64,000 bases of DNA, from IMG/VR virus record IMGVR_UViG_3300025133_000023, one strand, 5' to 3'. The position numbers and the translations under genes were made by a program. Shown here in pieces: positions 1 through 63,716 of this stretch. This DNA comes from a virus. The notes beneath the pieces were generated by a model, which saw only the letters and a list, made by a program, of their open reading frames with translations, did no database searches and was not told the origin of the DNA. Positions within the stretch are counted from its first letter, which is position 1. Each line of letters starts with the position of its first letter.

Positions 1-5
1 CGACC

Positions 6-2168: not shown

Positions 2169-2171
2169 AGG

Positions 2172-4021: not shown

Positions 4022-4025
4022 AGAC

Positions 4026-4622
4026 TTACTCCTCTTCCTTCTTCTTAAGTTTTGGGCATGGTGGCTCGCCCATCTCTTTCTTAAGGGTGGCTTCTAGCTC
4101 TTGTTTGCGAAGCTTTTGCCTTAAGTCGAGGGCTTGCTTATACATATCAAAAGTGATGATGTTTGTTTTCTTTCCATAGAGTCGAGCAATAGCTCTGCGA
4201 AGATTAACGTTCTTCTTAGTGTCAACACGAACATCAACCCCACCCGCAGCTCGGACCTTTTTGTCGATAATAGACCCTAGCTTATTTAAGGTTGCCTGAA
4301 GCTCAGTTGCCTTATCAATGCGAGCCCCCAGCTCTTTGCGGGTATCTTCTAAGTCCATATCTGTAATGTGGAGCTTAGAGTCATCAATGAATGAAAGTCC
4401 AGTTTCAGCATCCGTTACTCTAAAGGGACTGTCTGGGCCTAGAACGTCCGAGACAAGGAGCTTGTCTGGGGTAATAGGGTTGCCCTCACCATCCACACCA
4501 ACCCCAACCTCAAGGCCATTCTTGTCTATGGCTGTTCTTGACGATTTAGGAAGAGGTGTATCTTCTACTATACGAGAAATCTTCTGAAGGATCTCAAGTC
4601 CTTTGAGGGGATCAGAGGGCAT
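4026..4622 (-). CDS. Hypothetical late-cluster protein
   Basis: 198 aa, tightly packed in the operon. Confidence 0.6.
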   Translation of the reverse strand: MPSDPLKGLEILQKISRIVEDTPLPKSSRTAIDKNGLEVGVGVDGEGNPITPDKLLVSDVLGPDSPFRVTDAETGLSFIDDSKLHITDMDLEDTRKELGARIDKATELQATLNKLGSIIDKKVRAAGGVDVRVDTKKNVNLRRAIARLYGKKTNIITFDMYKQALDLRQKLRKQELEATLKKEMGEPPCPKLKKKEEE

Positions 4623-4625
4623 CTA

Positions 4626-5072
4626 TTATGTTCCTATGAGTCGCTGGCTACCAGATACAATCAGAGAGATATCGGCCTTAACCAGAGCTGGGGTAAGTCC
4701 AGGGACAACAACCCTTATATAAAAGGGGTAGTAGCCTGAGACATCTGCTAGAGCGGTATCTCCAATAGTTCCAACATTAGCGATGTTATTCCAAGCAATA
4801 GCGTCCCACTCTCTCTTGGTAGGACGCCTACTCCCTGCACTGACCTTAACCCCCCAGCCACTACCCCCCGGGCCTAGAAGGTCATTGCCTGTTGAGGGGT
4901 CACTGTCTTGAAACTGAACGGTAAGATCCTCATAGTAATGATTGGGATCATCGTTACGAAGATAGAGCAAAGTATCTACTGCCTCACCTAGGGTACCGTT
5001 ATGACTAGTCACAATGGTATTAGCAAAATCAGCGATCTTGATCTTTAAAGAGTCATAAATAGCTAAGGACAT
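4626..5072 (-). CDS. Hypothetical protein, probably structural (beta-rich)
   Basis: 148 aa, TAATG coupling to the upstream gene. Confidence 0.55.
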   Translation of the reverse strand: MSLAIYDSLKIKIADFANTIVTSHNGTLGEAVDTLLYLRNDDPNHYYEDLTVQFQDSDPSTGNDLLGPGGSGWGVKVSAGSRRPTKREWDAIAWNNIANVGTIGDTALADVSGYYPFYIRVVVPGLTPALVKADISLIVSGSQRLIGT

Positions 5073-5578
5073 TATCGGTTTCTTCCTGTCTCACCATGGT
5101 GGAACTGGGTATAGTGTTTCTTCCTACGACTACCGCCGCGCATAAAGCCAAAGGCTCCATAGGCTCCAACAAGAGCAGCTGCGTTTCGTCTAGGATTTTG
5201 AAATAGTTGACGGTTGCTGATTTGAGAAGTAATCGAGGCACGACTAGCTTGGTCGCTGGAGGGGATAAGCATTCTGGATTTCTTGAGTCCTCGAACGTTT
5301 CGCCTCATGGCTAGGCCTCCTATTCCGGCAGCGGCACCCCAGAAGGCTCCACCAGTAACGCCCGGGACAAGCCGTCTATCTCTGTCAACAACAGCAGTAC
5401 CTCCACCAATAGCAGCGCCAACTCCAGCACCAGCTAAGGCATGAAGCATGGCCACTCTAGTATCGACATTAAGACTTCTGGCTCCTCTAATAAGGCCAGC
5501 ACCTAGATTGGGTGTATTCTTAAGGTGACTCAAGGCTATTTCTGAGGCCTTCTTTACTCCTGCACCGATTCCGAGCAT
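5072..5578 (-). CDS. Gly/Ala-rich basic protein with hydrophobic segments
   Basis: 168 aa; GxxxG-rich hydrophobic stretches; TAATG coupling to terL. Confidence 0.55.
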   Translation of the reverse strand: MLGIGAGVKKASEIALSHLKNTPNLGAGLIRGARSLNVDTRVAMLHALAGAGVGAAIGGGTAVVDRDRRLVPGVTGGAFWGAAAGIGGLAMRRNVRGLKKSRMLIPSSDQASRASITSQISNRQLFQNPRRNAAALVGAYGAFGFMRGGSRRKKHYTQFHHGETGRNR

Positions 5579-8034
5579 TAGACTTTCCTCCTAGTGGGTT
5601 TGGAGCTGCTACGTTTCATTACTCGCGCTCCTGCACGAGAGAACCTTTGCTGAAGCTTAAACTTCCATTCGGTATCATTCTCAATGCCTGGACGGAGAGT
5701 CGTCACCTTACCGGTAACGGACTCACGAGGTTTCTTTTCAATAGCCCTGGATCTACTTCTAACTTCTCCTGAGCGCTCAAGAACCTTCTCCGCTTCTACC
5801 ATCTTAAGGTATTCGGGGTCATAACGCACGGCCAACCCACTATACCCTACAGCAGGGTTCCCGTCTGGCTGAAGGGGAACGTTTTGTCTAACCTCAGTTA
5901 GGATTCTGTCCCCTTGCTTTACTGTTCTAGTGTTGTGGTTTGAGCCAAACCCTTGAAGCTTGGCAATATTATTTGCAGCAGGCGCATTCATAGCAAAGGA
6001 TGTTCGCTCAAGCTTGTACGCAACTAGAGCCAGGTTGAGAGCATCAACACGGTGATCTCCAATCTTCTTATCGTTCTGTCCGTAGCGAGGAATACCGGTG
6101 ATTGACACGTTCTCCTTGATGTAGTTGAGGAGTTGGTTGTGCAAAGTCTTGTCTGTGAAGGGGAAGAAGATCAGACCGTTTTCGAACTGTCTAATAGAAT
6201 TCTCTACAAGGAAGGGCTTAGCGAGCGCCTTCTTCATTGTTCCCGTGTTGGGGTCTCTGAACTCAATCTTCTTAGAGAAGTCATAAGAGACAAGCTTATC
6301 TTCGATGTGTGCATCTGGACTGTTGGGATGAGTAACTTTAGCGTGCCTTGATGCGGCTTGCATATGTTCAATCTGCCCAACACCGTAACCAGCATCAACA
6401 TAGATGAACTGTGGATTCCAGTGCTTGTGAAGTTCGAAGATTCTCTGCTCTGCCTTGATCATCATCCAGTTCTGCTTAGGGATGTTGATAGCATCAACGA
6501 CAAAAACTCTCCCCACTTCATCCATACCGGTTACTACAATCTCTGTACCGGCATTGGAGTTCCAGTCAACCCCAATACTATATACCCATCTAGGCATAGG
6601 GCGACTAAGGTCAAGGGGCTTTCCATTCCATAGGAAGTTTGATTCACCATAGCCATAATTTACCTCTGCATTCCCCACATACTGAGGCTGATACACACCC
6701 ATCATCTGAGCAATAAAGTCACCCATGTACTCTTGCATGAAAGCATCGTGAGTCATGTCGATGGTGTTCTTAATATCATCCCAGTTATCTAGAACGGTAG
6801 AGGGGAAGTAAAACTCCTTGGTGTGGGGAGATTCTTTACACTCCTTATAGAACCACTCTCTCTTACCGCTGGGGGTTGAGGATGACCACATCTTTACATG
6901 TGGGTAGGTTAGGAGGATAGGCTCAATGGCCTTCCTAAGGTCGTTGGTTGGGATGTAGTCGACTTCGTCTGCGTAGATGAGGTCCGAGGACTGACCACGG
7001 ACCGTGGAGGCTTCCTGCTTCGACTGAGCGCCTGTGGTGAAACCCTTAACAACAGCAGTCTTCCCACCACCTAAATCAATCTCCAGTCTGTGGTAGGGAG
7101 TCTTGACATGCCTGGACTTCATCGCAAATAGATCATCATTACGCTGTAGTAGCTCGATGAGGTTATCAAAGATAAGTTCAATCTGAGACAAGAACGGACT
7201 AAGGATTAGAACGCTTCCGCCCCGATACTTCTTATCTCCCTGAGCATCTGTTCCGTCAGGGAACTGTACATTGAATAAGAAGTTGAGCATGTTCATTGCC
7301 ATGCCATATGTCTTGCCGGAACGTCGTCCCCATCTGAGGACCTTGTACTTGGCAGAGCATCGGTTAGATACTTCCTGGTGTGGCCTGAGCGTACGGGCTA
7401 AGAATTTCTGAGCCCACATGCTGGGGTCCATAGACGCAATAGCAAATTTCTTCTGCTCGTCGGTAAGGACATCGTCATAGTCAGGAGGTAGCCGATATTC
7501 CTTAGGAATGAAGTCACACTGAATCATGAAGCCCGTAAGGTCACTTTTCTTTACCCAACCCTTGGCGTGCTTGGTAATGACGGTGAATTCACTTTCACAC
7601 TCATCACACTTACGCTCCGTAAAGGAACGCTGGCTCATTGAAGCAAGCTTCTTATGTTCCTTGGGGTGACGCATGCAGGTCGCAATGTACCTACTTACGC
7701 TAACATTAAAGAGCTCACCCTTACGTTCGATAATGTCTACGTGCTGGTGCTTCTTTAGGGGGAGGGTTTTCTTTGTGAGGGCCTTGTCTCTATACAGGAA
7801 GGACTGAGAGTTCTTGATCTTCCATGTCGTTCGACTAGGGTACTTTTCAAGCTGACCGATTTGACACCCCAAACAAGCATTGTGGCAGTCGGTATTGATA
7901 TTGTACATCTCTGCATAGTCGGCTACTAGCTCCTGAGGAACAGGTCTGTAGTAGTCGATATAGGTGATTTCTCTACCTTCAACATCTGTGTAGCCATTGC
8001 CTACAAGAATATTATCGAAAAGTGGATGTGGCAT
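5578..8034 (-). CDS. terL: Terminase large subunit
   Basis: Walker A WGRRSGKT, Walker B LIYADEVD, coupling motif SSTPSG, nuclease acidic motifs IGVDWN, VDAGYG, DHRVDA; start refined to ATG 8034 (TAATG overlap with the upstream gene). Confidence 0.95.
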   Translation of the reverse strand: MPHPLFDNILVGNGYTDVEGREITYIDYYRPVPQELVADYAEMYNINTDCHNACLGCQIGQLEKYPSRTTWKIKNSQSFLYRDKALTKKTLPLKKHQHVDIIERKGELFNVSVSRYIATCMRHPKEHKKLASMSQRSFTERKCDECESEFTVITKHAKGWVKKSDLTGFMIQCDFIPKEYRLPPDYDDVLTDEQKKFAIASMDPSMWAQKFLARTLRPHQEVSNRCSAKYKVLRWGRRSGKTYGMAMNMLNFLFNVQFPDGTDAQGDKKYRGGSVLILSPFLSQIELIFDNLIELLQRNDDLFAMKSRHVKTPYHRLEIDLGGGKTAVVKGFTTGAQSKQEASTVRGQSSDLIYADEVDYIPTNDLRKAIEPILLTYPHVKMWSSSTPSGKREWFYKECKESPHTKEFYFPSTVLDNWDDIKNTIDMTHDAFMQEYMGDFIAQMMGVYQPQYVGNAEVNYGYGESNFLWNGKPLDLSRPMPRWVYSIGVDWNSNAGTEIVVTGMDEVGRVFVVDAINIPKQNWMMIKAEQRIFELHKHWNPQFIYVDAGYGVGQIEHMQAASRHAKVTHPNSPDAHIEDKLVSYDFSKKIEFRDPNTGTMKKALAKPFLVENSIRQFENGLIFFPFTDKTLHNQLLNYIKENVSITGIPRYGQNDKKIGDHRVDALNLALVAYKLERTSFAMNAPAANNIAKLQGFGSNHNTRTVKQGDRILTEVRQNVPLQPDGNPAVGYSGLAVRYDPEYLKMVEAEKVLERSGEVRSRSRAIEKKPRESVTGKVTTLRPGIENDTEWKFKLQQRFSRAGARVMKRSSSKPTRRKV

Positions 8035-8420
8035 TAAATGATGATTCCATCTAGGAGCGTTGTCGACTTTGTTGTGACGATATCTGTGCTTAGGCCTGAT
8101 CTGATAGAGTTCCACTCAGAAATAGGGACCTGTTCATACTGACTATACTTACCAAAGGGAAGGAGAAAGACAAGATCAATAATAGCAATCATGATCTGGC
8201 TACCAAGAAGGCCAACAATAGACAAAGTAATCTTCGCGTCTTCCTTTTTCCTAATTCCTGGCCTTGCTCCGGAGCGGGAGAGAAAACCTTTATTATCCCA
8301 AAGGATGAAGTCTACACTGTCAAACAAGTTAAAGACACTGGTAAAGGTAGTGATATGAGAAGCGTCGAACCTTCCCTCAATCATATGTCGAGTAATAATA
8401 GGGGCTGAAGTAACGGGCAT
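8034..8420 (-). CDS. Hypothetical protein
   Basis: 128 aa, TAATG-coupled on both sides. Confidence 0.55.
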   Translation of the reverse strand: MPVTSAPIITRHMIEGRFDASHITTFTSVFNLFDSVDFILWDNKGFLSRSGARPGIRKKEDAKITLSIVGLLGSQIMIAIIDLVFLLPFGKYSQYEQVPISEWNSIRSGLSTDIVTTKSTTLLDGIII

Positions 8421-9394
8421 TAGAATCCTCTCCTGTGCATGTACTGCGCCTCGTTGCCTAAGGCAGATCTAGCATTAAGATGAGAGCGCTGAATGGCCTG
8501 TACAGACATTTGCCTAGAGGTAAAGGCCCCTTTGGTGGAGAAGGCGGCTAGTGAGCTTGAAGTATTAATCCCAAGGCTTCTGTGCCCTGCATCAATATCC
8601 CTACTGGCACGACCCGTAGCAGCTGTTACATGCCCAATGCCTGCCATGACTGGAAGCATAGCTAGTGTCTGCATAGCAAAGGCTCTCGATCCAAGGAGAG
8701 CAGCTCTAGTCAAAGGACCCGCCGATCCGGCCGTGTAGCCTAGAGCAGCACTGCCAGCCTTGGTTGCCCAACCAGCCTTAGCGCTAGCCGCACCGCCAGG
8801 TATATGCCTAGCTCTAGCACCAGCACTAGCACTACCTTTAGCCCAGCTAGCCTTTGCTTTAGTCATCCCTCTGGTGTGCCCTAACTTCATCATAGTTCCA
8901 GCACCTGAGCCCTTAAAAGTTCTTCCTACCCCAGAGAATGCAGCAGAGAAGCCAACACTCATAGCTCCCCACTCTAGGCCTCCGCCAATAGCACCACCGA
9001 TTCCTCCCTCATTATATCCTGACTTAATGGAATGGCCCATAAATAGCCAGGACACAGCCGGAAGAGCCCTAAGCCCAAACCTTCCAGCTCCCTTGCCTAG
9101 AGCACTAGCCATTCCCCGTTTAGTGGTTGCTGCACCCCAGCCTTGCTTGAGCTTGCTAAGGTCCATAGCCCAGCCTCTTCTTCCACCGAAGAACTCCCAC
9201 CCTCTGCCAGTTTTGCTGAAACCATACTCAGCAGCAATACCATGCCCAACGGCACGGGCAAACCCACCTGGGGTTTTGCTATAGAACTTTTCGCGATGAA
9301 GTAGCTTTTCTTTAAGCTCACTTCTAGTGGGGCTACTCTTGCGCCCTGAATACAGCTCAAACTTTTCAGCAGGTCGGGGAGCTATATTAAACAT
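8420..9394 (-). CDS. Gly/Ala-rich basic protein, possible internal virion or ejection protein
   Basis: 324 aa; G/A-rich hydrophobic segments; position in the late cluster (function is inference). Confidence 0.5.
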   Translation of the reverse strand: MFNIAPRPAEKFELYSGRKSSPTRSELKEKLLHREKFYSKTPGGFARAVGHGIAAEYGFSKTGRGWEFFGGRRGWAMDLSKLKQGWGAATTKRGMASALGKGAGRFGLRALPAVSWLFMGHSIKSGYNEGGIGGAIGGGLEWGAMSVGFSAAFSGVGRTFKGSGAGTMMKLGHTRGMTKAKASWAKGSASAGARARHIPGGAASAKAGWATKAGSAALGYTAGSAGPLTRAALLGSRAFAMQTLAMLPVMAGIGHVTAATGRASRDIDAGHRSLGINTSSSLAAFSTKGAFTSRQMSVQAIQRSHLNARSALGNEAQYMHRRGF

Positions 9395-10686
9395 TAACCT
9401 TTCCTCCTATTATTCATGGCAAAGACTAAGTCTCCTGTAGCCCCCATGTGGCCTCCCTTTACTCTTCTTCCTGAGAAGGTAGGGTTAACTTGTTTACTAG
9501 TATCTCTTGGGGCTGCGGAATTAAGAATCTGTTGACGACTCATTTGATGATGTTGCATATACATCTGGTTCATTTGCATTGCCTTATTGGCTCCACTTTT
9601 TCCAATGCCTACCGTTGCTCCACCAATAGCCGTTACTGCAAGCATGGCCATCATCTTCCGTGGGTTGTTCGCCATCTTACCAACTGTCCATGCGCCAAGC
9701 CGTCCAAGCTTAGAACCACCAAGCCATTCAACACCACTAGCTACCCCTCGACCACCCTTGGCGGCTGTGTCGAAGATAGTATCAGCTCTGGTTGCGGGGT
9801 TCTGAACTTTTTTAAGAAAGTCATCCCCAGCAGGAAGGCCCTTTTCTGTTACCCAATCTGCGGCCCTACCAAAGGCTCCACTTTGGAAGCCCTTATGTAT
9901 TCCATAACCAGCAGCGCCTATTCCAGCTATTCCCAGTCCTGCAATAACAGGATGATCCCACATAGTAACCGCTAAACCAAAAGCAGCAGCTGTGCCAACA
10001 GCAGCAGCACCCGCCTTTCCGAGCCTCTTAGCCGCAGGAGAGGTAAAGGCTCCTTTGACCTTACCTGGAAGGAGGTCGGCATGATACCAAGCCCTGCCTT
10101 CTCCAGGGGAGTGCATTACTGGAGAGCTGAGCTTTGCCTTGCTTCCACCTTTTGCTCCAAAGTCTTCGCCCATTTCAACAACGCTAGACATGTTAGCCGC
10201 ACCTGGGCGTCTCTTGCTTCCACGCCACGGGTCTCGGCCTGCTGCTGTTGCTGCCTTAACGTCTCGAGTATGTCTTCGAAGGGATGTGTCGCGGGCCTCC
10301 CTATCCATAGCCATTGCCTGTTCGTACAGGAAGTCAAGACGAGCGCCACTGACTCTACCGAAGGGAAGGTTTCTCTTCTGCCGTACTCTCTTGTTGTGTA
10401 GTTTGTCAGCAAGGGTTCGGGCCTGGGATGGCGTTCTTCCTCGACCCTGAGTTCTTCCTCTAAAAGCTCCAAAAGCTTCAGCCCTACTTTCAGGACCCAT
10501 AGAGAATTTACCCATGGAAACCCTATACCCAGTTGCACCATGAATGGGGTCTAGGAGAGCTCCAGTTCCAACAAAGGTTATCCCCGAGCGGCGGCGCTGG
10601 CCAGCAGGACTAAGGGGATCTGTAGGATTACGCCTAGGCCTTTGCCGATCAAGGAATCGTTTTCTTTCGTCAAATGGGTTTGACAT
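9394..10686 (-). CDS. Gly/Ala-rich basic protein with two hydrophobic segments
   Basis: 430 aa; composition similar to its neighbours. Confidence 0.5.
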   Translation of the reverse strand: MSNPFDERKRFLDRQRPRRNPTDPLSPAGQRRRSGITFVGTGALLDPIHGATGYRVSMGKFSMGPESRAEAFGAFRGRTQGRGRTPSQARTLADKLHNKRVRQKRNLPFGRVSGARLDFLYEQAMAMDREARDTSLRRHTRDVKAATAAGRDPWRGSKRRPGAANMSSVVEMGEDFGAKGGSKAKLSSPVMHSPGEGRAWYHADLLPGKVKGAFTSPAAKRLGKAGAAAVGTAAAFGLAVTMWDHPVIAGLGIAGIGAAGYGIHKGFQSGAFGRAADWVTEKGLPAGDDFLKKVQNPATRADTIFDTAAKGGRGVASGVEWLGGSKLGRLGAWTVGKMANNPRKMMAMLAVTAIGGATVGIGKSGANKAMQMNQMYMQHHQMSRQQILNSAAPRDTSKQVNPTFSGRRVKGGHMGATGDLVFAMNNRRKG

Positions 10687-10688
10687 TA

Positions 10689-13600
10689 TTAACTACCTCC
10701 ACGGTGGTGATTGATTGGTGATGAGAATTGGTCTTTTGAGGCTGCTGTTTGAGCACGGGCCATCCTCATTTTACGCGCCTGACTTCTTGTTTTTGAAACT
10801 GCCCTCTGGAGATGTTTTCCTTCAATTTTAGCACCTCCAGCCTTTTGACTAAAAAAGCTTTTCGCATCAAGGTTCTGGAGAAGAGCTCCTTCCACAGCAT
10901 CAATAGAACCCAAACCACTCAACATATCCCTATAGTCAGCTGGAGCAATTCTCCCTCGCCCTAGCCCATACAGAACATTACTTGAAGGATCTCTTACCTT
11001 TTGGTGCCGAGAAGTCTCATAGGTTTGAGTCCGTGGTTCACCCCAAGGAGTCATACTAGTACTTGTTTCAGTTTTTGTTCTTAAAATCCTACCAGCTAAT
11101 TCATCCTTATCAAGAGAGAGAACTCCTTGGGGAGTTAGCTCTGTTAACGGAATTCCCTTCTTTTCGAGTGTTGACGTAAAGGTATCAAGGATTTCTTTGC
11201 TTATCTTATTATCATTGTAAGCGGCAGTTTCCCTGATTCCATCTGCTCTCACGCTAGAGAAAGTAAGAGGGTCTCTGAAGAAACCAGACCTAACCTTGTA
11301 GTCTCTTAGAATCATTTCGTTTTGAGTGGCCTGAGAGGCAAGGGCAGAAACAGGCTCATCTATGTTATCAGCAACTCTTCTTCCCGAAGCTGTAAGGGTC
11401 GATCCAATATCCTTAGTCGCCCAAGTGTCAACCTGACCAGAACTATAGAGAAAACCAAGAGGGGTATTCTTGAAGATGAAGTCATGGCCTTCTTTAGCTG
11501 GATTAATTAAACTAGCTGAAATACCCCCTGTTCGAGCTTCCTCTGTAAACATTCCCTTAACTCTTGCTTCAAATGTTTCTCTTCCCATAGAAGAGGCCGT
11601 TGCCGCTTCATCAAGAATAAGACCAGCAACAGCAAAAGGTTCGCCCCCAAAGGCTTCAGTATACTCTCCCTTAAGACTCTTAACTGTTCCTCGTGCTCCT
11701 GGCCCATAGGATGGAGAGGGTAGAGCTTTTTCTAAGTTCCTCTTACCCAATCCTCCCGACCTAAGGGCATCTCCCATAGGCCTAAGGCTGGACCAAAGAT
11801 CCAAAACCATAGGAGCAATCTTGCCAATGCTGGGACTACCAAAACCAAACATAGGTCGATACTCACTAGCTATGCCTCCGTGCTGGAAACCCTGGATGTC
11901 GTTGTGGGCTCTTGGGTTACCCTTACGCTTAGCGCGCTTCTTGTTCCTAGAATTGAACCTTCCTACAGTAGAGCGAAGCCTAAAGCCATAGTCTACAAAT
12001 TCCTGCTCATCCTCAATATAGCCTCGCTCATGGGCCCCCCAAGCAGACATAGTCATTTGCTGTAGGGCAGCATCCTTGGCCAACTTATCCATACGGGTCA
12101 TGGTGTTAAAGGTGACTCTAGAACCAGCCTCATCCATGGCGATCTTCTGAGCTTGCCAGAAAGGATCTCCCCACATTCCGCTTCTAGATCCAGAAGCCAC
12201 ATCTTCAGCTCTTTGGAACTGACCTCTATCTACAATGGAAGAACCAGAGTCTCCGAAGGGAAGGTGAGCTGCCTGACCGCCTCGCACAAGCTGAAGGTTG
12301 ATGTTTTGCTGGTCTTCACCATAGAGGAAACCAATCTGTCTACCGTAGGTGCTGGCTTCTGGATCATAGGCTAGAGTAAGGCTGCCTTGAGCCCTGATGA
12401 TTTCTTCAAACTGTTCTGCCGACACCTTACCGTGAGGCTGGTCCTGACCAACACGAACTGGCTCTAGGGGATCGTTTGCGTGACCACCAGTTTCGGGAGC
12501 ATCAATACCGGCAAGACGAATGGAGATTTTCTTTCCAGTACCAAAGCCTAGGAAGTTCTTTCTCCTAAGCATGAGAGTGTCGGCGTCATCGAACTCATAC
12601 TTGTACTTGTCTTTACTAATGTCTACCACCGCCAGGCGCTTCTGTAGCATAGGGTTAACACCACTCAATAGAGCGCCTCCAGAGGCGTCCTGAATAGCCT
12701 TAACCTGTTCGGGGGTGTAGGTTATGCCTGCTCCTAGTGGAATCCTTCCTAGCTTACTCTGGGCCTTGGTCTGGGCCTCCTTGATCATCATCTGCTCTAC
12801 GGCAAAACGACCTGGCTCCTGCCAGACATCTCGTTCCCACTTAGCCTGCTGAGCTCGATACTCTCGCTCTTGCTGAACACGGAAGAACCACGGAGTTCCC
12901 ATTCCCTGATAGCCAGAACCGAATTCAGTATTCTGCTTACGCAGCTGAGGAGCTACACCAAGTTCACTCAATCCTTCTGCGACAAGACGCTCGTCCTTGT
13001 CTGGACTCATAAAGGACGTAAGGACTTCAAAGCCAATCACCGCAGCAGTGAGGGTACCTGCAGACTTAAAGGGATACTTCCTCGCCAACAGAGCAGCACT
13101 GTCTCTAAGTCCCCATTTGCCAGCAGCATCCATCTTTGAAAGAAGCTTCTTGTTAAGCTGAGCTTCTGCCTCTAGGCTAACTCCAGTGTGCTTGAGAGCT
13201 TCAAGCTTGCTAGTGCGCATGCGATTGACTTTACTAGCCTCTCCGTCCCAGTCAAAGCCCTCACTGCCATTCATGTGAACGGTCTTCAAATACTCAACAG
13301 CTTCACTCCATTTCTTTGTTCTAACTTTGTTGGCTACACTGATTGGGGTTGATCTAACAAACGGACTGCCATGAGTAAACACTGGGGCTTCCCAGCTTCT
13401 TCTCCCAGTAACTACCTCTACACCCTTGCCCGTTCTAATCTCTAGCTTGGCGTCGGCTAGGGCTCTACGAATGGCTCGATGCTTAAGCTCTGGTCTGACT
13501 GCTTCCAGTCTCTTCATTACTTGAAGATCGTCTTTGGCCCCGGGGGAAAACAAAGCGCCTATGGCCCCCATAAACCCCTGGTTCAACCCACTCATTCTCT

Positions 13601-14417
13601 GATTTAGCCCAAGGAGCCCTCCTGGCGTTCCCGCCTTACCCAACCTAGGGCCAAACAACACCTTGGCTTCCTGCACAACATCGCCTGCTGCACGGTGAGT
13701 TTCGGCTTCCATGCCCATTGCCATACCCATGACGTTAATTGAGGTGCCTGTGTAGGTGCCTTTTTGGGAGAAGATTCCCAAGTCCATAGCCTGAGAAAAC
13801 ACACTCCTAGCTACGTCCTGAACATCCCTTACCTTGGTACTGGCTCCAGCTCCTGATTTGGCATATTGTTCAATAACACTTGCCCAGTCTCCGGTAGCAT
13901 AGGCAGCGCCTCTGGCAGCTTGGACTCGCCTACCAGTAACGTAGAACATGTTGCCAATGTTTCCCTTTCCTGCAGGGGCTGTTTGGAATTGCTTGCTGAA
14001 CTTGACTAGTTCTTCATCACTTAGATGGTCTCTAGCCATTGCTCCTAGTTGTCGAGACTCAAAGGGTGCGTTGGCAATCCATACTTGCTTGCCTTGTATT
14101 TCTGCAAACAGTTCCCGTAGGAAGTTCCCGGGAGTAGATGATCCCTCAGCAAAAGAAGCGGCGATTCCTGCTCTGGTTGAGGGCTGTCCTTCGAACCTTG
14201 CTCTAGTCCATGGCTCCATGGACTCAGCAGCTGCGTCTGCAGCGATTGCTTCTTTCCCTGCATGTGGCCTAATGGACCACCTTCTTACTTTGCCGGTTTG
14301 TAAGTCATACCAAGCCGCTTCCCAGACGGGACTTCCTTTCTCAAGACCAAAGGTCTCAATATCTAGGAAGCCTGCATTAAGGGCAAATGGATGGATGTTC
14401 TTTAAATTTGACTTCAT
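10689..14417 (-). CDS. Large multidomain protein: N-terminal DEDDh exonuclease plus central thermonuclease (SNase) domain
   Basis: ExoI GFLDIETFG, ExoII ANAPFES, ExoIII HRAAGDV; SNase DADTL..IRLAGIDAPE..STYGRQIG..NLQLVRGGQA..AEDVASGSRSGMW. Confidence 0.8.
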   Translation of the reverse strand: MKSNLKNIHPFALNAGFLDIETFGLEKGSPVWEAAWYDLQTGKVRRWSIRPHAGKEAIAADAAAESMEPWTRARFEGQPSTRAGIAASFAEGSSTPGNFLRELFAEIQGKQVWIANAPFESRQLGAMARDHLSDEELVKFSKQFQTAPAGKGNIGNMFYVTGRRVQAARGAAYATGDWASVIEQYAKSGAGASTKVRDVQDVARSVFSQAMDLGIFSQKGTYTGTSINVMGMAMGMEAETHRAAGDVVQEAKVLFGPRLGKAGTPGGLLGLNQRMSGLNQGFMGAIGALFSPGAKDDLQVMKRLEAVRPELKHRAIRRALADAKLEIRTGKGVEVVTGRRSWEAPVFTHGSPFVRSTPISVANKVRTKKWSEAVEYLKTVHMNGSEGFDWDGEASKVNRMRTSKLEALKHTGVSLEAEAQLNKKLLSKMDAAGKWGLRDSAALLARKYPFKSAGTLTAAVIGFEVLTSFMSPDKDERLVAEGLSELGVAPQLRKQNTEFGSGYQGMGTPWFFRVQQEREYRAQQAKWERDVWQEPGRFAVEQMMIKEAQTKAQSKLGRIPLGAGITYTPEQVKAIQDASGGALLSGVNPMLQKRLAVVDISKDKYKYEFDDADTLMLRRKNFLGFGTGKKISIRLAGIDAPETGGHANDPLEPVRVGQDQPHGKVSAEQFEEIIRAQGSLTLAYDPEASTYGRQIGFLYGEDQQNINLQLVRGGQAAHLPFGDSGSSIVDRGQFQRAEDVASGSRSGMWGDPFWQAQKIAMDEAGSRVTFNTMTRMDKLAKDAALQQMTMSAWGAHERGYIEDEQEFVDYGFRLRSTVGRFNSRNKKRAKRKGNPRAHNDIQGFQHGGIASEYRPMFGFGSPSIGKIAPMVLDLWSSLRPMGDALRSGGLGKRNLEKALPSPSYGPGARGTVKSLKGEYTEAFGGEPFAVAGLILDEAATASSMGRETFEARVKGMFTEEARTGGISASLINPAKEGHDFIFKNTPLGFLYSSGQVDTWATKDIGSTLTASGRRVADNIDEPVSALASQATQNEMILRDYKVRSGFFRDPLTFSSVRADGIRETAAYNDNKISKEILDTFTSTLEKKGIPLTELTPQGVLSLDKDELAGRILRTKTETSTSMTPWGEPRTQTYETSRHQKVRDPSSNVLYGLGRGRIAPADYRDMLSGLGSIDAVEGALLQNLDAKSFFSQKAGGAKIEGKHLQRAVSKTRSQARKMRMARAQTAASKDQFSSPINHHRGGS

Positions 14418-14455
14418 TGGGGCCTATGCTAGTACAGAAGGGAAGGAGTGGGCGA

Positions 14456-15328
14456 CTACTCTAGGGTATCATCCTCCTCATCATCCAGCACTTCAACAAC
14501 CTCAGCTTCGATAAAGTCATCTCGTTCTTGAAGGCGACGAGCAAGATCTGCCATTACCTCTGTGAGCTCATTTTGACGACTAGTGCCAAGAGCTGCCTGG
14601 GCCTTGACCTTGGACTGCCTATCTCCAATCATGGCTCGGATTAGTTCCTGCTTCATGCGGTGGATCTTTTCTTTAAGCTCGAATGCGGGATGGAGGCGCT
14701 TGTTGGTGATTTCTGTCCCAGGATCATCGGTGCGGGGGTTGATGATAATGGTCGCTACCTCATCCATAATGATAGCCTCTTTGGCTAGAATTTGCGAGGC
14801 ACGAGCGTCATATATGTCAAGTTCAGCTAATTTGCTAATGATCGACATGTCTGTGACGTTATTACTGTCACTGGGATCTACATTGAACTCCATGCACAGA
14901 TCTTGCACCTTCATAGCAATGAGGGTGTTCTCATAGGGACACTGCTCAAACACCGGCCACTTGGAGTTGGCAGTGTCAATCACAGGCAGGCTGTCGTGAC
15001 CACGCTGCGGCTTGTTTGTTTTTTTGTCCATGACAAACCTAGTCAAACCACACTGCCTACCTACTGGACACTTAATCCCACCCGGACATATCATGGGAAC
15101 CCTGGCGTGAAGCCCAGTCCGCAAACTTATCATGGAGTTCTTAAACCTTTCAGCTGTGGTTGGATCTAGTTCCAAATCATAGCTGGCAAGGGGGATTTTG
15201 AGGAACTTGAAGTACTCTTCCTTATCTATAGCTTTAGTAGAGGCTACGTCATGGGTGATTGTGTCAAGCCCTATTGTTTTGACTAGAGTTGTGCTGCTGT
15301 TGTTGTCATTGTTGTTGTTTGATGACAT
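14456..15328 (-). CDS. Probable terminase small subunit
   Basis: Helical, Cys cluster, acidic tail, located at the head of the packaging operon; start at the TAATG overlap 15328; assignment is mainly positional. Confidence 0.4.
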   Translation of the reverse strand: MSSNNNNDNNSSTTLVKTIGLDTITHDVASTKAIDKEEYFKFLKIPLASYDLELDPTTAERFKNSMISLRTGLHARVPMICPGGIKCPVGRQCGLTRFVMDKKTNKPQRGHDSLPVIDTANSKWPVFEQCPYENTLIAMKVQDLCMEFNVDPSDSNNVTDMSIISKLAELDIYDARASQILAKEAIIMDEVATIIINPRTDDPGTEITNKRLHPAFELKEKIHRMKQELIRAMIGDRQSKVKAQAALGTSRQNELTEVMADLARRLQERDDFIEAEVVEVLDDEEDDTLE

Positions 15329-15582
15329 TATCTTTTGTTCCGTTCCCACTCACTGACAAGGTCTTCGTTCTCCCCTAGCCATTGGATGAACTCTTCCTGC
15401 TCGAGTTGTTCAAACAGCTTCTTTGTTTTCTTAGCATAGGCGCAGTTGTGATAGTAGGGGCCTCTGGAGGAGAAATATCTATAGCGCCTAGCATGGCTAT
15501 TCCACCAACGCCCACTTCTTTCTTCACCCAAATAGTTGAGCAAGTCCCCAAAGCCTTTAAGCTGATTGATTGTGATTTCCAC
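15328..15582 (-). CDS. Hypothetical protein
   Basis: 84 aa; GTG start; TAATG coupling to the downstream gene. Confidence 0.45.
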   Translation of the reverse strand: MEITINQLKGFGDLLNYLGEERSGRWWNSHARRYRYFSSRGPYYHNCAYAKKTKKLFEQLEQEEFIQWLGENEDLVSEWERNKR

Positions 15583-15598
15583 GTGAGATTATTTCAGC

Positions 15599-16330
15599 CT
15601 AGGCATTGACACGAGTAAGGTCATACCTATATACGCGCGACTTACTAAGAGCATCCTCAAATCCCTGCTTCTGCCAGCGATCTTTTCTTCCCTGAAAGGC
15701 TTCAAACCTTGAGTAGCGGGCCCTTTGCATTGCATCAATCTTAGCATCCAATACTTCACCATAGATGAGCTTACCATTGGTGAGCCTAAGCCCGGGGATT
15801 GAGATGTGCAACCAAGCACTACGGGCCCCTACTTCATAAATGGCCTGGCCAAACGGATTTGGACACTCTTCTCTCGCCCAGTCCCATAGCTCTCGTACAG
15901 GAATTCCACTAACCCTTACATCGGCGGCTTCACCTCTGCTGTGTTGAGAACGAGGCTTGTACTTTTTCTTAGCATAGACGGATCTAATGTCAACATCGAT
16001 GCCTTCCCACCAGTTAGTAGATTGATCTAGCTTGATGGTGTCTTGCTCTGCCCATCTCATTGCTGAGTTAATCATTATGGGGCGCTTAAAGTAGTCCCTC
16101 ATAGGCTGCAACAAGGTTGTGCAGAGTTTGGTAAGAGATGCTCGATAATAGTGCGCATAGAGGAAGTTAACCGCTTCCGTACGACCGGTACGCCACGTGT
16201 TGGCCATTTCCCATAGGGAAAAGTTGGGCGATAGTTTGTCTTTGCGACTGGCTTCTATAAAAGCAGGCGTAATAGAGCTAAGTTTAAGTGTGAATTGTGT
16301 CATTGGTTGTGGTTGGCTTAACTTCGTCAT
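15599..16330 (-). CDS. Peptidase M15 family (Zn peptidase), probable endolysin
   Basis: LSPNFSLWEM, LQPMRDYFKRPIMINSAMR, SQHSRGEAADVRV, WLHIS motifs. Confidence 0.85.
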   Translation of the reverse strand: MTKLSQPQPMTQFTLKLSSITPAFIEASRKDKLSPNFSLWEMANTWRTGRTEAVNFLYAHYYRASLTKLCTTLLQPMRDYFKRPIMINSAMRWAEQDTIKLDQSTNWWEGIDVDIRSVYAKKKYKPRSQHSRGEAADVRVSGIPVRELWDWAREECPNPFGQAIYEVGARSAWLHISIPGLRLTNGKLIYGEVLDAKIDAMQRARYSRFEAFQGRKDRWQKQGFEDALSKSRVYRYDLTRVNA

Positions 16331-41848: not shown

Positions 41849-42240
41849 GGGTCCGATAAGGTCTCGACAGGGTGATAATGCGGGGAAACCGCGTGGCAAA
41901 AGATGGTGGTTGTACCCACCAATAAAAACAATCGGCACTGAAAGCGCGCCACTTGCTCTCGCTGCCTAATAGGTAGCTAGAGTTAGTACTTGGGACTACG
42001 AGAGCCCAAGAGTAAGATGACAAAGTATGCCAGTATGCTTATTTTCTTGCTTAAACATTAACTGGCTAGTGGAACTTACATTGACGTTCTTCCTTGTAAA
42101 CCCAACGATAAAAACCCATCTAGAACTTGGTGCTAGAATCACCTAACCTTGTTTGCAGGTAAAATAATAGCTTACTAGGCCACGTAGACGTTGTACCAAA
42201 AACACTTTGGACGAGGGTTCGATTCCCTCCGGATCCACCA
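41849..42240 (+). ncRNA. ssrA: tmRNA
   Basis: Acceptor GGGTCCG/CGGATCC-A-CCA with G3.U70; T-arm GAGGG-TTCGATT-CCCTC; tag frame 41934-41969 encoding (A)GTESAPLALAA-stop. Confidence 0.92.
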
Positions 42241-42738: not shown

Positions 42739-43038
42739 ATGACCGACATCGTTCTAATTGACTACAATGGTCCAGCCGTAGAGAAACCGAGAGTTCGTCA
42801 ACTCGATAACTGGATCTTCTGCTTTGCTGGCGGAAGTAAGGTTTTTCTTAAGGGCGGTATAATCTCCGAAAACGGAGTACCAATCCCAGAAGATCAAATT
42901 CGACTCACAACAACAAGCTTCATCGCTAAGATTGAAGGGCGTATCGCAATTACAGAGTCTGGTAGTCGTTACGAACTACTAACTCCGATCGACCCCAAGC
43001 AAGAAGAAGCCCTTCTCCTGATTAGCTCTTCGGGGTAG
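42739..43038 (+). CDS. Hypothetical protein
   Basis: 99 aa; its TAG stop lies inside the following tRNA gene. Confidence 0.55.
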   Translation: MTDIVLIDYNGPAVEKPRVRQLDNWIFCFAGGSKVFLKGGIISENGVPIPEDQIRLTTTSFIAKIEGRIAITESGSRYELLTPIDPKQEEALLLISSSG

Positions 43039-43108
43039 TAGTTCAGTGGCCTAGGGCGGCAGCTTCTAAACCTGTGCGGCGAGGGTTCGAATCCCTCTTA
43101 CCCCGCCA
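43032..43108 (+). tRNA. tRNA with CUA anticodon (amber suppressor type)
   Basis: GGGGTAG/TTACCCC-G-CCA; D GTTC/GGGC; anticodon stem GCAG(C)/(C)CTGT with loop TT-CTA-AA; T GAGGG/CCCTC. Confidence 0.75.
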
Positions 43109-45941: not shown

Positions 45942-47519
45942 ATGAGCCGATTCATGGACGCCCTCAAGGGCAAGACCGCACGAACTTCTTCCACTACGAC
46001 TCCTCAGCGAGTCAAGGCTGTTAAGGTTCCAACCGAAGTAGCACTACTTCAGCGCACCGACTACACGGGTGGACGCACGGCTAACGCCGCTGTGACTCAC
46101 TCCACGTCTCAGAGCGCTCTGGTCGACCTGTTCTTCCAGATTGGTGCTATGCGGAACGTGCCTGCGCGTAACCGTGCAGAGGAATTCCTCAAGGCTTATC
46201 GTCTCAATCCCCTGGACGCTCTCCGAATGATCTTCTACGCACGTGATGTGCGTGGTGGACAGGGTGAGCGTGAGACCTTCCGTGTCATGTTCCGGGTTCT
46301 CTGCCTGGAAGACCCAGCAGTAGCCGCACTCAACCTGCACCTTGTGCCGGTGTACGGTCGCTGGGATGACATGTACGTAACTCAGGGGACCACTCTGGAA
46401 GCAGGTGCCGTCAACCTGTGGGCAACCGCCATCAAGGCCAAAGATGGCCTCGCTTGCAAGTGGGCTCCTCGTGAGAAGAGCGCACGAAGCGAGTGGGCTC
46501 TGCGTCTGCGAAACGCTCTCGGCTGGTCTGCCAAGGCCTACCGAAAGTTTATCGCAGCCAACTCCAAGACTGTTGAACAGGCCATGTGCGCTGGTGATTG
46601 GGAAACCATCACCTATGAGCACGTTCCTGCTCAGGCCATGAGCCGTCTGCGTAAGGCTTTTGCCAAGCACGATGGTGAGCGGTTCACCGCATTCAAGGGC
46701 GCAGTCAAGTACGGCAAGACCAAGATCAACGCGGGGACGGCAATTCATCCTCACGAGATCCTTGCCATGATGCGCACCACCGGCACCCGGAGCTACCGCC
46801 ATGGCTACGGCTACGGCTACGCTGGTAACGCTACCTACAGGCATGACGACACTCTGGAACTTCAGTGGAAGGCCCTCAAGGACTTCGCTGGAAAGAGTGG
46901 CCGAAATGCTCTGGTTGTCACCGATGTGTCTGGTTCCATGGAAATTCGGCTTGCCGACTCCAAGGCTCAGATCATTGACGTTGCCATTGCCATCGCAGTT
47001 TACTGTGGTGAGCGACTCAGTGGCCCCTACAAGGACCACGCTGTAACGTTTAGTGACAAGCCCACTCTGGTTGACTTCTCCAAGGAGAAGACCCTTGCTG
47101 CCAAGGCAACCAAGGTTGGCACTGCCAACTGGGCAGGTAGCACCAACATCGAAGCAGTATTCGACCTGATTCTCGGAGCCGCAGTTCGCTACGGCCTGAC
47201 TCAGGATGAGCTTCCCTCTACCCTCATCGTTGTCTCCGATATGGAGTTCAACCACGCGGGCAGAGGCACCAACTACGCAAAGGCTGCAAACAAGTTTGCT
47301 CAGGCAGGCTTCAAGCTCCCCGAGATCGTTTGGTGGAACGTCAACGCTCGACCCGGCAACAACCCGGTTCGCAAGCACGAGACGGGAACGGCTCTCATCA
47401 GTGGCTACAGCCCAAGCATTCTCTCGCAAGTCCTGGGGTCTGACCTCATGACGCCTGAGCGAGTTATGCGAAAGGTTCTCGATGGCCAGCGATACGAAGC
47501 TGTTCGAATCCAGAGTTGA
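45942..47519 (+). CDS. DUF2828-like protein (TROVE/Ro60-like helical domain plus vWA)
   Basis: FYARDVRGGQGER, YGRWDD, CKWAPRE, vWA MIDAS VVTDVSGSM and IVVSDMEF, WNV. Confidence 0.85.
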   Translation: MSRFMDALKGKTARTSSTTTPQRVKAVKVPTEVALLQRTDYTGGRTANAAVTHSTSQSALVDLFFQIGAMRNVPARNRAEEFLKAYRLNPLDALRMIFYARDVRGGQGERETFRVMFRVLCLEDPAVAALNLHLVPVYGRWDDMYVTQGTTLEAGAVNLWATAIKAKDGLACKWAPREKSARSEWALRLRNALGWSAKAYRKFIAANSKTVEQAMCAGDWETITYEHVPAQAMSRLRKAFAKHDGERFTAFKGAVKYGKTKINAGTAIHPHEILAMMRTTGTRSYRHGYGYGYAGNATYRHDDTLELQWKALKDFAGKSGRNALVVTDVSGSMEIRLADSKAQIIDVAIAIAVYCGERLSGPYKDHAVTFSDKPTLVDFSKEKTLAAKATKVGTANWAGSTNIEAVFDLILGAAVRYGLTQDELPSTLIVVSDMEFNHAGRGTNYAKAANKFAQAGFKLPEIVWWNVNARPGNNPVRKHETGTALISGYSPSILSQVLGSDLMTPERVMRKVLDGQRYEAVRIQS

Positions 47520-49759: not shown

Positions 49760-49840
49760 GGGGAAGTATCTCCTCGGCCTCCTAAGCTGTTGAAAGAGTA
49801 ACCTGGATACATGTGGGTTCGAATCCCTCCTTCCCTGCCA
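49760..49840 (+). ncRNA. Non-canonical tRNA-like RNA with CCU (Arg) loop and no canonical D-arm
   Basis: GGGGAAG/CTTCCCT-G-CCA; T-loop TTCGAAT; CGGC-CTCCTAA-GCTG nested inside TATC/GATA. Confidence 0.6.
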
Positions 49841-56972: not shown

Positions 56973-57048
56973 GCCTTTATAATTCAATGGTTTAGAATTC
57001 TTCTGTGGTATAGAAGAGACTATGGTTCGATTCCGCACCTAGGCACCA
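56973..57048 (+). tRNA. Degenerate tRNA-Thr(GGU)-like
   Basis: Cloverleaf with CCA but three acceptor mismatches and G at position 32. Confidence 0.45.
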
Positions 57049-63321: not shown

Positions 63322-63401
63322 GGGGTATGGGACTGCATGGGGTGGTCGCTTCGCTTGCACCGAGGATATTCAGAAGGGTTCGATTCCCTTATACTCCACC
63401 A
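63322..63401 (+). tRNA. tRNA-Ala(UGC)
   Basis: G3.U70, loop CTTGCAC, CCA. Confidence 0.85.
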
Positions 63402-63409
63402 AAACATAT

Positions 63410-63482
63410 GGACTTGTAGCTCAGATCTAGAGCGCCCATCTCAAGTGGGAGGTCGGTGATTAGTATCCACCCAGGTCCACCA
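63410..63482 (+). pseudogene. tRNA-like gene with 5-nt anticodon loop
   Basis: GGACTTG/CAGGTCC-A-CCA, CCCAT-CTCAA-GTGGG, aberrant T-loop. Confidence 0.55.
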
Positions 63483-63640: not shown

Positions 63641-63716
63641 CCTGCATGACGCGCCGGTTGCGCTGCGGATCCTGATAAGATCTGTGTGCTGAGTTCAACT
63701 CCCAGATGCAGGACCA
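63641..63716 (+). tRNA. tRNA-Ile(GAU)
   Basis: CCTGCAT/ATGCAGG-A-CCA, loop CTGATAA. Confidence 0.75.

What the first reader, a model, noticed from the sequence alone, without database searches (positions are those of the whole stretch)
49760..49840. Arm-rearranged tRNA-like RNA with Arg(CCU) loop
Seen: a normal 7-bp acceptor, G discriminator, CCA and T-loop, but no D-arm after the acceptor. Instead TATC/GATA encloses first an anticodon-type hairpin (CGGC-CTCCTAA-GCTG) and then a D-loop-like AGTAACCTGGATA segment, so the arm order looks swapped. Inference: either a non-canonical functional tRNA fold, or a decoy for anticodon nucleases or synthetases.
Basis: partly seen in the sequence, partly recalled or inferred. 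Interest (0 to 1): 0.7.

Follow-up and report, generated by a model that had tools for sequence, protein, structure and literature searches.

The report
Phage arginine tRNA with rewired core
This 81-base phage gene is very likely a working arginine tRNA (anticodon CCU) that has every standard tRNA part, but with half of the D-stem and the D-loop placed after the anticodon arm instead of before it. Many phages share this non-cloverleaf layout, gene finders miss it, and I found no paper describing it.

Summary
The element is not a chance look-alike. A covariance model built without the window scores it at 81 bits (E 5e-19), against 25 bits or less for the window's ordinary tRNAs.

It belongs to a family of at least 78 distinct sequences. 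Members occur in Streptomyces, Microbacterium and Listeria phages, crAss-like gut phages, jumbo phages and many marine viral contigs, mostly inside tRNA arrays.

Covariation instead supports a 3-bp helix, C11-U12-C13 with G37-A38-G39, that encloses the anticodon arm. It is followed by a D-loop-like AACCUGGAUA. This amounts to a tRNA core in circularly permuted order.

Family members carry only Ile (UAU, GAU), CAU or Arg (CCU, UCU, ACG, UCG) anticodons. The base at the position-20 equivalent is A in all 14 Arg members and U in all 62 Ile members, matching the known ArgRS and IleRS identity sets.

ARAGORN of 78 members. Rfam's tRNA model gives the window copy 24.9 bits, below its cut-off of 29.

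Best reading: a functional tRNA-Arg(CCU). Expression and charging are untested.

This scan has found the same family before on other DNA and read it the same way. I found no paper describing it.

The parts
49760..49766 (+). Acceptor stem, 5' strand (GGGGAAG, positions 1-7)
   Evidence: Pairs 7/7 with 49830-49836, including G1.U72. All 7 pairs show changes on both sides across 78 members.
49767..49769 (+). U8 A9, then U10. U10 lies opposite U40 and corresponds to the 13:22 pair.
   Evidence: U8 and A9 are invariant, although no search pattern constrained them. U10 is A in one member, where it can pair with U40.
49770..49772 (+). D-stem strand placed before the anticodon arm (C11 U12 C13; equivalent to canonical 23-25)
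   Evidence: Paired with 49796-49798 in 78/78 members. Variants are CUC/GAG, CCC/GGG, ACC/GGU, CCG/CGG and CUU/GAG, plus CGC/GCG in a second subclass.
49773..49774 (+). C14 (position-26 equivalent) and U15 (position-27 equivalent, opposite U31)
   Evidence: C14 is invariant and U15 nearly so. Listeria phage LPML1 has A15-U31, a fifth Watson-Crick pair.
49775..49789 (+). Anticodon arm: stem CGGC/GCUG, loop CUCCUAA. Anticodon CCU lies at 49781-49783, with U33 at 49780 and A37 at 49784.
   Evidence: The stem is 99.7% paired and all 4 pairs covary. Loop format is Y-U-NNN-A-N in all members.
49790..49795 (+). U31 and the variable-loop-like U32 G33 A34 A35 A36
   Evidence: GAAA is present in all members, but the retrieval patterns partly fixed it. 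Position 32 varies among A, U and C.
49796..49799 (+). D-stem strand placed after the anticodon arm (G37 A38 G39, then U40; equivalent to canonical 10-13)
   Evidence: Compensatory changes with 49770-49772.
49800..49809 (+). D-loop equivalent AACCUGGAUA: A14, A15, the G18 G19 pair at 49805-49806, A20 at 49807, A21 at 49809
   Evidence: GG is present in all members. The base after GG is A in 14/14 Arg members and U in 62/62 Ile members. This copy has one extra nucleotide (C) compared with the other members.
49810..49812 (+). Linker C A U to the T arm. U53 is a candidate position-48 partner of A15.
   Evidence: Constant in all members, but fixed by the retrieval patterns. Its tertiary role is inferred only.
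49813..49829 (+). T arm: GUGGG / UUCGAAU / CCCUC
   Evidence: 4 of 5 pairs form in this copy (U.U at the second pair). Across the family the stem is 98.7% paired and 4 of its pairs covary. The T-loop has the T54-Psi55-C56...A58 consensus.
49830..49836 (+). Acceptor stem, 3' strand (CUUCCCU)
49837..49840 (+). Discriminator G73, then genome-encoded CCA
   Evidence: Arg members carry A, G or (once) U as discriminator; Ile members always carry A. Most members do not encode CCA.

Best explanation
49760-49840 is the gene of a functional elongator tRNA-Arg(CCU), reading AGG, whose central domain is wired in circularly permuted order.

Layout, in order:
- After U8 A9 comes the strand that normally forms the 3' half of the D-stem (U-CUC).
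- Next come position 26, the anticodon arm and a five-nucleotide variable-like segment (UGAAA).
- Only then come the 5' half of the D-stem (GAG-U) and the D-loop (AACCUGGAUA).
- A CAU linker joins these to a normal T arm.

In secondary structure this is a three-way junction in which the D-stem encloses the anticodon arm.

Inferred, not shown: all nucleotides that build the L-shape are kept (U8, A14, A15, G18, G19, A21, T54, Psi55, C56, A58). The molecule is therefore expected to fold into a near-normal L. It would then be processed by RNase P, charged by the host ArgRS through A20, C35, U36 and G73, and used on the ribosome.

The layout most plausibly arose once, by tandem duplication and trimming of the core. 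It then spread among phages, switching between Ile and Arg anticodons.
For: 1. Membership. A family model built without the window scores the element at 81.4 bits, E 4.7e-19; the next best hit, an ordinary tRNA, scores 25.2 bits.
2. Family size and range. There are 78 distinct sequences: Streptomyces, Microbacterium and Listeria phages, a crAss-like Kehishuvirus, jumbo phage contigs and many marine viral contigs.
3. Structure. 97.8% of cells are paired, and 18 of 19 pairs show changes on both sides. No shuffle out of 500 reached this, and shifted-register controls fall to 44-48% paired. Helix 11-13:37-39 is 100% paired with five sequence variants and a sixth, CGC/GCG, in a second subclass.
4. 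Identity elements. The position-20 equivalent is A in 14/14 Arg-anticodon members, U in 62/62 Ile members and C in 2/2 CAU members. The discriminator is A in all Ile members and A, G or U in Arg members. This matches the bacterial ArgRS set (A20, C35, U/G36, A/G73) and IleRS set (A73, U20, A35, U36, A37) listed in PMC9976931. The window copy has A20, C35, U36 and G73.
5. Genomic placement. 49 of 78 members lie within 300 nt of an ordinary tRNA, often 4-6 nt from the neighbour in an array. In 77 of 78 held loci no ordinary tRNA carries the same anticodon.
6. Re-ordering test. Moving the block G37..A50 back between A9 and U10 makes ARAGORN, 78 as tRNAs with the expected anticodon. The native order gives 0/78, and a control with a shuffled D-arm gives 18/78.
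7. Codon demand. AGG is 15% and AGA 19% of Arg codons in the window's ORFs. The window holds no other CCU tRNA.
Against: - There are no expression, end-mapping, modification or charging data.
- Thermodynamic folding of the single sequence is no better than shuffles (z = 0.80).
- This copy has a U.U mismatch in the T-stem and a G.U at 1:72.
- Columns 33-42, 46-47 and 51-53 were partly fixed by the patterns used to collect members. Their constancy is therefore not independent evidence.
- The three-dimensional fit of the permuted wiring is reasoned from canonical tRNA geometry, not modelled.
- The host is unknown, so the codon-demand argument is weak.
Confidence: 0.77

Rival explanations
1. It is a tRNA mimic or decoy. 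The RNA folds like a tRNA and binds ArgRS, an anticodon nuclease or another tRNA-binding host factor, but it does not deliver arginine on the ribosome. It would soak up or mislead a host defence or a regulator.
For: - The family is almost confined to phages. In the viral scan 109 of the matches that could be checked passed the T-loop filter (75 distinct sequences). Only 1 of 119 rows in the genome scan was real. None of 150 further genomes of one order had a match.
- The core sequence is unusually constant across very distant phages, as expected if a protein reads it.
- The wiring is non-standard.
Against: - A decoy does not need anticodon-matched A20/U20 and discriminator bases for two different synthetases.
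- A decoy does not need to fill the one anticodon missing from an array.
- A decoy does not need a full 7-bp acceptor and 5-bp T-stem of EF-Tu-compatible length.
- Several anticodons (UAU, GAU, CAU, CCU, UCU, ACG, UCG) share the scaffold. That fits decoding better than a single nuclease target.
Confidence: 0.13
2. A TATC/GATA helix closes a two-hairpin domain, with the anticodon hairpin first and a D-arm-like hairpin second, so two whole arms are swapped.
For: The four-base complementarity exists in this copy. A GUA/UAC mini-hairpin around the GG can be drawn in some members.
Against: - Helix 8-11:47-50 is only 67% paired and has no compensatory change. When C11 changes, G47 does not.
- G39 is taken up by the covarying 11-13:37-39 helix.
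- Column 48 follows the amino-acid class, not a pairing partner.
Confidence: 0.03
3. It is a precursor that is cut and re-ligated into a canonical cloverleaf tRNA, as happens with the permuted tRNA genes of some algae. Alternatively, it is a decaying tRNA pseudogene.
For: Re-ordering one block gives a canonical tRNA in silico. Some phages encode RNA ligases.
Against: - The permutation is internal. Both acceptor strands are already in the normal order, so circularisation plus one cut cannot restore the cloverleaf; two cuts and two ligations would be needed.
- A pseudogene is excluded by covariation in all four helices across 78 sequences.
Confidence: 0.03

Closest known systems
Canonical bacterial and phage elongator tRNA (Rfam RF00005), specifically tRNA-Arg(CCU)
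   Same: It has the 7-bp acceptor, discriminator and CCA. It has the 5-bp T-stem and TPsiC loop. It has a 7-nt anticodon loop with U33 and A37. It keeps U8, A14, G18, G19 and A21 equivalents, and the Arg identity set A20, C35, U36 and G73. It sits among tRNA genes.
   Different: There is no D hairpin between position 9 and the anticodon arm. The two D-stem strands flank the anticodon arm, and the D-loop follows as a strand leading to the T arm. The RF00005 score is 24.9, below the cut-off of 29. ARAGORN does not call it.
D-arm-lacking mitochondrial tRNAs (for example mammalian mt-tRNA-Ser(AGY), nematode mt-tRNAs; reviewed in PMC7609411)
   Same: There is no D hairpin at the usual place, and a short connector joins the acceptor to the anticodon arm.
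   Different: Those tRNAs have lost the D-stem and the G18 G19 elbow contacts, and they are shorter. This RNA keeps a covarying D-stem and a full D-loop sequence, is 4-5 nt longer than a standard tRNA, and is found in phages of bacteria.
Circularly permuted tRNA genes of Cyanidioschyzon merolae and other algae (from my own knowledge: Soma et al. 2007)
   Same: The gene order of tRNA segments differs from the order in the cloverleaf.
   Different: In the algal genes the whole molecule is permuted (3' half before 5' half). Processing through a circular intermediate restores a normal tRNA. Here only the inner core is permuted, the ends are normal, and the mature RNA is expected to stay permuted.
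Allo-tRNAs and other 8/4 or 9/3 tRNAs from metagenomes and phages (PMC5389517)
   Same: They are non-standard tRNA architectures found by mining metagenomes. Some occur in phage tRNA clusters, with UAU among the frequent anticodons.
   Different: Allo-tRNAs change the acceptor/T-stem lengths and have long variable arms, but they keep the normal arm order. This family keeps 7/5 and changes the order of the core strands.

Membership tests
Canonical tRNA (Rfam RF00005 cloverleaf) | 7-bp acceptor stem with a discriminator base (CCA encoded or added) | tested here: met
   GGGGAAG/CUUCCCU pairs 7/7, followed by G and CCA. The stem covaries across the family.
Canonical tRNA (Rfam RF00005 cloverleaf) | T arm with a 5-bp stem and the UUCRANY loop | tested here: met
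   GUGGG-UUCGAAU-CCCUC forms 4 of 5 pairs in this copy; the family is 98.7% paired.
Canonical tRNA (Rfam RF00005 cloverleaf) | Anticodon arm: 5-bp stem and 7-nt loop with U33 and a purine at 37 | tested here: met
   Four Watson-Crick or G.U pairs plus U15.U31; loop CUCCUAA.
Canonical tRNA (Rfam RF00005 cloverleaf) | D-arm hairpin between position 9 and the anticodon arm | tested here: not met
   Only 8 nt lie between the acceptor and the anticodon stem. Infernal deletes the D arm and inserts 19 nt in the variable region.
Canonical tRNA (Rfam RF00005 cloverleaf) | Reaches the family's curated score, or is called by tRNA finders | tested here: not met
   24.9 bits against a cut-off of 29. ARAGORN gives no call here and of 78 members. 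8 of about 22 members tested reach only 29-37 bits. tRNAscan-SE was not available.
Canonical tRNA (Rfam RF00005 cloverleaf) | Aminoacylation and use in translation | not testable with these tools
   No RNA data could be reached.
Rewired (permuted-core) phage tRNA family, as defined here (models R1, R2) | A helix 11-13:37-39 encloses the anticodon arm and is followed by U-AA-YY-GG-N-N-R and CAU | tested here: met
   CUC/GAG is present here. The helix is 100% paired with compensatory variants across the family.
Rewired (permuted-core) phage tRNA family, as defined here (models R1, R2) | High score with a family model that does not contain the query | tested here: met
   R2 gives 81.4 bits, E 4.7e-19.
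Rewired (permuted-core) phage tRNA family, as defined here (models R1, R2) | Ile or Arg anticodon with the matching position-20 base and discriminator | tested here: met
   CCU with A20 and G73; the rule holds in 14/14 Arg and 62/62 Ile members.
D-armless mitochondrial-type tRNA | Loss of the D-stem and of the G18 G19 elbow nucleotides | tested here: not met
   The D-stem equivalent covaries, and GG is present in all members.
Whole-gene permuted tRNA (algal type) | 3' half of the tRNA encoded upstream of the 5' half | tested here: not met
   Both acceptor strands are in the normal order at the two ends.

The most novel reading that the evidence does not exclude
Phages maintain a second, topologically distinct tRNA fold. 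It would be a permuted-core tRNA that host ArgRS and IleRS charge and ribosomes accept. Its rewiring would be selected because it escapes host tRNA-targeting defences (anticodon nucleases, tRNA-depleting systems) or the phage's own attack on host tRNAs, while still decoding AGG, AGA and AUA.
Probability: 0.15. Interest if true: 0.92.

Novelty: new variant of a known kind. Interest (0 to 1): 0.8.

Why it matters
[quoted passage not shown] A 2020 review of non-canonical tRNAs lists no phage case and no permuted one (PMC7609411).

A widespread, conserved tRNA whose D-stem strands and D-loop are joined in a different order would have several consequences:
- It would show that the L-shape can be reached by another strand topology.
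- It would mean phage tRNA repertoires are under-counted, especially for AUA, AGA and AGG.
- It would offer a natural scaffold for orthogonal tRNA engineering.
- It would raise a testable question: why do only Ile and Arg acceptors, both served by class Ia synthetases that read position 20, use this layout?

For this window, it adds a tRNA-Arg(CCU) to the phage's gene list.

Tried and rejected
- Single-sequence folding was uninformative: MFE -18.2 kcal/mol, z = 0.80 against shuffles.
- The window's own genome is not held.
- A D-arm-like hairpin G39-A42 with 48-51 was rejected. G39 belongs to the covarying helix, and columns 48-49 do not follow a partner.
- The pattern scan of bacterial genomes gave 119 rows. 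117 could be checked; 116 were chance matches and 1 was real.
- The one metagenome-assembled genome with copies has two. No tRNAs lie nearby, and the flanking genes did not settle whether the region is a prophage.
- Five literature searches, including one for the core sequence strings, found no description of this layout. The library lacks most subscription journals.
- Pfam and PHROG scans of the flanking ORFs found nothing that links them to the RNA.

Full report
**1. What is in the sequence**

The window is a phage. It has Mu F-like head protein and large-terminase hits, a tmRNA and about ten tRNAs. No whole genome is held for it.

Positions 49760-49840 read as follows:
- GGGGAAG, the acceptor 5' strand
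- UAU-CUC-CU
- CGGC-CUCCUAA-GCUG, the anticodon arm with anticodon CCU
- UUGAAA-GAG-U
- AACCUGGAUA-CAU
- GUGGG-UUCGAAU-CCCUC, the T arm
- CUUCCCU, the acceptor 3' strand
- G, then CCA

ARAGORN does not call it. Rfam's tRNA model aligns it end to end at 24.9 bits, below the cut-off of 29, by deleting the D arm and inserting 19 nt after the anticodon arm. Folding the single sequence is no better than folding shuffles (z = 0.80), so energy alone says nothing either way.

**2. It has many relatives**

blastn against GenBank phages matched only these roughly 60-70 bases. It matched in unannotated gaps of Streptomyces phages (Stanimal, Yaboi, TomSawyer and others) and of a crAss-like Kehishuvirus that infects Bacteroides. 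In that alignment the acceptor and T stems differ but stay paired, while the core is nearly identical.

109 matches passed a T-loop filter, giving 75 distinct sequences with paired acceptor, anticodon and T stems.

A short-query blastn added more divergent copies in other Streptomyces phages, in Microbacterium phage A3Wally and in Listeria phage LPML1. All lay in unannotated gaps.

After filtering I kept 78 distinct sequences (alignment A2).

A model built from 40 of them, without the window, scores the window element at 81.4 bits (E 4.7e-19). The window's ordinary tRNAs score 25 bits or less. The window holds one copy.

**3. The structure**

The divergent copies settle the fold. The triplet after U8-A9-U10 and the triplet after GAAA change together:
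- CUC/GAG in the window, the marine contigs and the crAss-like phage
- ACC/GGU in Mildred21, A3Wally and Lululemon
- CCG/CGG in TunaTartare and Braelyn
- CCC/GGG in two marine copies
- CUU/GAG in one copy (a wobble)
- CGC/GCG in a second subclass

Counted on 78 sequences, the four-helix structure is 97.8% paired, and 18 of 19 pairs show changes on both sides. No shuffle out of 500 reaches this, and registers shifted by 1-3 columns drop to 44-48% paired. Helix 11-13:37-39 is 100% paired.

The D-stem therefore exists, but its two strands lie on either side of the anticodon arm. Mapped onto standard numbering, the order after U8 A9 is:
- 22-25 (U-CUC)
- 26 (C)
- 27-43 (the anticodon arm, with a U.U at 27:43)
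- 44-48 (UGAAA)
- 10-13 (GAG-U)
- 14-21 (AACCUGGAUA)
- a CAU linker, then the T arm

This is a circular permutation of the core, [22-48][10-21].

As a computational check I moved the block G37..A50 back between A9 and U10 in all 78 sequences. ARAGORN then of 78 as tRNAs with the expected anticodon. It of 78 in the native order, and 18 of 78 in a control with a shuffled D-arm.

That the permuted wiring can still form the L-shape is my inference from canonical geometry. In the canonical stack, strand 39-43 already continues towards position 10. Positions 8 and 9 lie next to 22 and 23, and A21 lies next to 48. I did not model this.

A caveat on conservation. Columns 33-42, 46-47 and 51-53 were partly fixed by the search patterns and by my filter, so their constancy is not independent evidence. 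The 5' core UAUCUCCU was not constrained by the second pattern and is still nearly invariant.

**4. Is it a working tRNA?**

Four observations bear on this.

- *Restricted anticodons.* The counts are UAU 52, GAU 10, CAU 2, CCU 7, UCU 3, ACG 2 and UCG 2.
- *Identity nucleotides.* The base after GG, the position-20 equivalent, is A in 14 of 14 Arg-anticodon members, U in 62 of 62 Ile members and C in both CAU members. The discriminator is A in every Ile member, and A, G or (once) U in Arg members. These are the published bacterial identity sets: Arg is A20, C35, U/G36 and A/G73; Ile is A73, U20, A35, U36 and A37 (PMC9976931). The window copy has A20 (49807), C35 (49782), U36 (49783) and G73 (49837). 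The D-loop-like strand therefore behaves like a D-loop that synthetases read.
- *Genomic placement.* 49 of 78 members lie within 300 nt of an ordinary tRNA, often 4-6 nt from the neighbour. An example is the marine arrays Leu(UAA)-Arg(UCU)-[rewired Ile(UAU)]. In 77 of 78 held loci no ordinary tRNA has the same anticodon. The loci are partial, so this is only indicative.
- *Codon demand in the window.* AGG makes up 15% and AGA 19% of Arg codons in the window's long ORFs, and together 53% in the structural-gene block at 1-16 kb. The window's only other AGR reader is an ordinary tRNA-Arg(UCU) at 59289. The host is unknown, so this is weak support.

What is missing is any direct evidence of a mature, charged RNA.

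**5. Distribution**

- In the viral collection, 109 pattern matches passed the T-loop filter. In the collection of bacterial and archaeal genomes, 1 of 119 rows was real, in a Prevotellaceae metagenome bin.
- That bin has two copies. None of 150 further genomes of the same order had a match, although filtering was limited.
- Streptomyces phages carry three or four copies per genome. One belongs to a second subclass that has UCGUUAAC in place of UNGAAA; Listeria phage LPML1 shares it.
- Rfam's tRNA model reaches its cut-off only marginally (29-37 bits) for 8 of about 22 members tested, while ordinary tRNAs in the same loci mostly score 40-73 bits.
- None of the matched GenBank records annotates the element as a tRNA.

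**6. Comparison with what is known**

It works like a tRNA and has all the parts, but it fails the defining cloverleaf feature of a D hairpin before the anticodon arm.

- It is not a D-armless mitochondrial-type tRNA, because the D-stem and GG are kept.
- It is not an algal whole-gene permuted tRNA, because its ends are normal and circularisation could not restore a cloverleaf.
- It is not an allo-tRNA, because it keeps the 7/5 acceptor/T-stem lengths.

A 2020 review of non-canonical tRNAs mentions neither phages nor permutation. A 2024 paper states that all known bacterial tRNAs are cloverleaves. Five full-text searches found no description. The library is incomplete, so 'not found' does not mean 'not published'.

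**7. Earlier notes of this scan**

After I had reached the reading above, look-ups showed that this scan has flagged the same family many times on other DNA. Most cases were UAU (Ile) members and some were UCU (Arg). The follow-up agents reached the same reading, and none found it in print.

Those notes are not independent evidence. Everything I rely on here was derived here. One note describes its 85-base variant as a pseudoknot. In the class to which the window copy belongs, the helix is nested, not knotted.

**8. Verdict**

The proposed fold is partly wrong: the helix was misplaced. The 'functional non-canonical tRNA' reading is well supported by comparative evidence, and I put it at about 0.77. 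A decoy role remains possible, at about 0.13.

The window copy is an intact Arg(CCU) member with four minor peculiarities:
- an encoded CCA
- one extra D-loop nucleotide
- a G.U at 1:72
- one U.U in the T-stem

Noticed in passing
window 41849-42240 and 43032-43108: The phage carries a tmRNA (tag GTESAPLALAA) and a tRNA with a CUA anticodon, which looks like an amber suppressor. I did not test whether TAG is recoded in this phage.
   Followed up: no
window 56973-57045, 63322-63401, 63410-63479, 63641-63716: The two tRNA finders disagree in the array. Rfam lists tRNAs at 56973-57045 (33.9 bits) and 63410-63479 (42.3 bits) that ARAGORN does not call. ARAGORN calls an 80-nt Ala(tgc) and an Ile(gat) that Rfam does not list at its cut-off. 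These may be further atypical tRNAs.
   Followed up: no
window 45942-47519: A 525-aa protein has strong DUF2828 and DUF7788 matches. Another first-reader note on this window links it to a small-RNA family.
   Followed up: no
L265:1501-1578 (Streptomyces phage Stanimal 87113-87190) and L135:295-373 (Listeria phage LPML1): This is a second subclass of the rewired tRNA, with anticodon UCU. It has UCGUUAAC(A/C) in place of UNGAAA and GGAGUAU in place of GGAUACAU. The split D-stem is again compensated: CGC/GCG in Stanimal, CUC/GAG in LPML1.
   Followed up: partly
L266:1501-1575 (Streptomyces phage Mildred21 86379-86453): The family model gives a 37-bit match here, with a CUUCUAA loop. I could not resolve its core fold; it may be a third layout.
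   Followed up: no
L002:1071-1570 (TomSawyer); L132, L133, L134: HNH endonuclease or endonuclease VII genes lie directly upstream of the rewired tRNA in several actinophages. In TomSawyer the annotated HNH CDS overlaps the first 42 nt of the tRNA. This may be homing-endonuclease traffic at this site.
   Followed up: no
L092:6268-6344 and L114:1954-2030: Two members carry a CAU anticodon and a C at the position-20 equivalent. That differs from both the Ile (U) and the Arg (A) classes. They could be Met or lysidine-dependent Ile2 versions.
   Followed up: no
L268 (G001:C2:165258-165334) and L269 (G001:C127:517-593): One Prevotellaceae metagenome bin holds two copies with no ordinary tRNA nearby. 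Whether these lie in prophages or in mis-binned phage contigs is unresolved.
   Followed up: partly
window 1-16000 versus 16000-40000: Composition and codon use differ sharply. GC is 44-51% and AGA+AGG are 53% of Arg codons in the first block. GC is 53-61% and AGA+AGG are 14% in the second. The phage genome looks mosaic.
   Followed up: no
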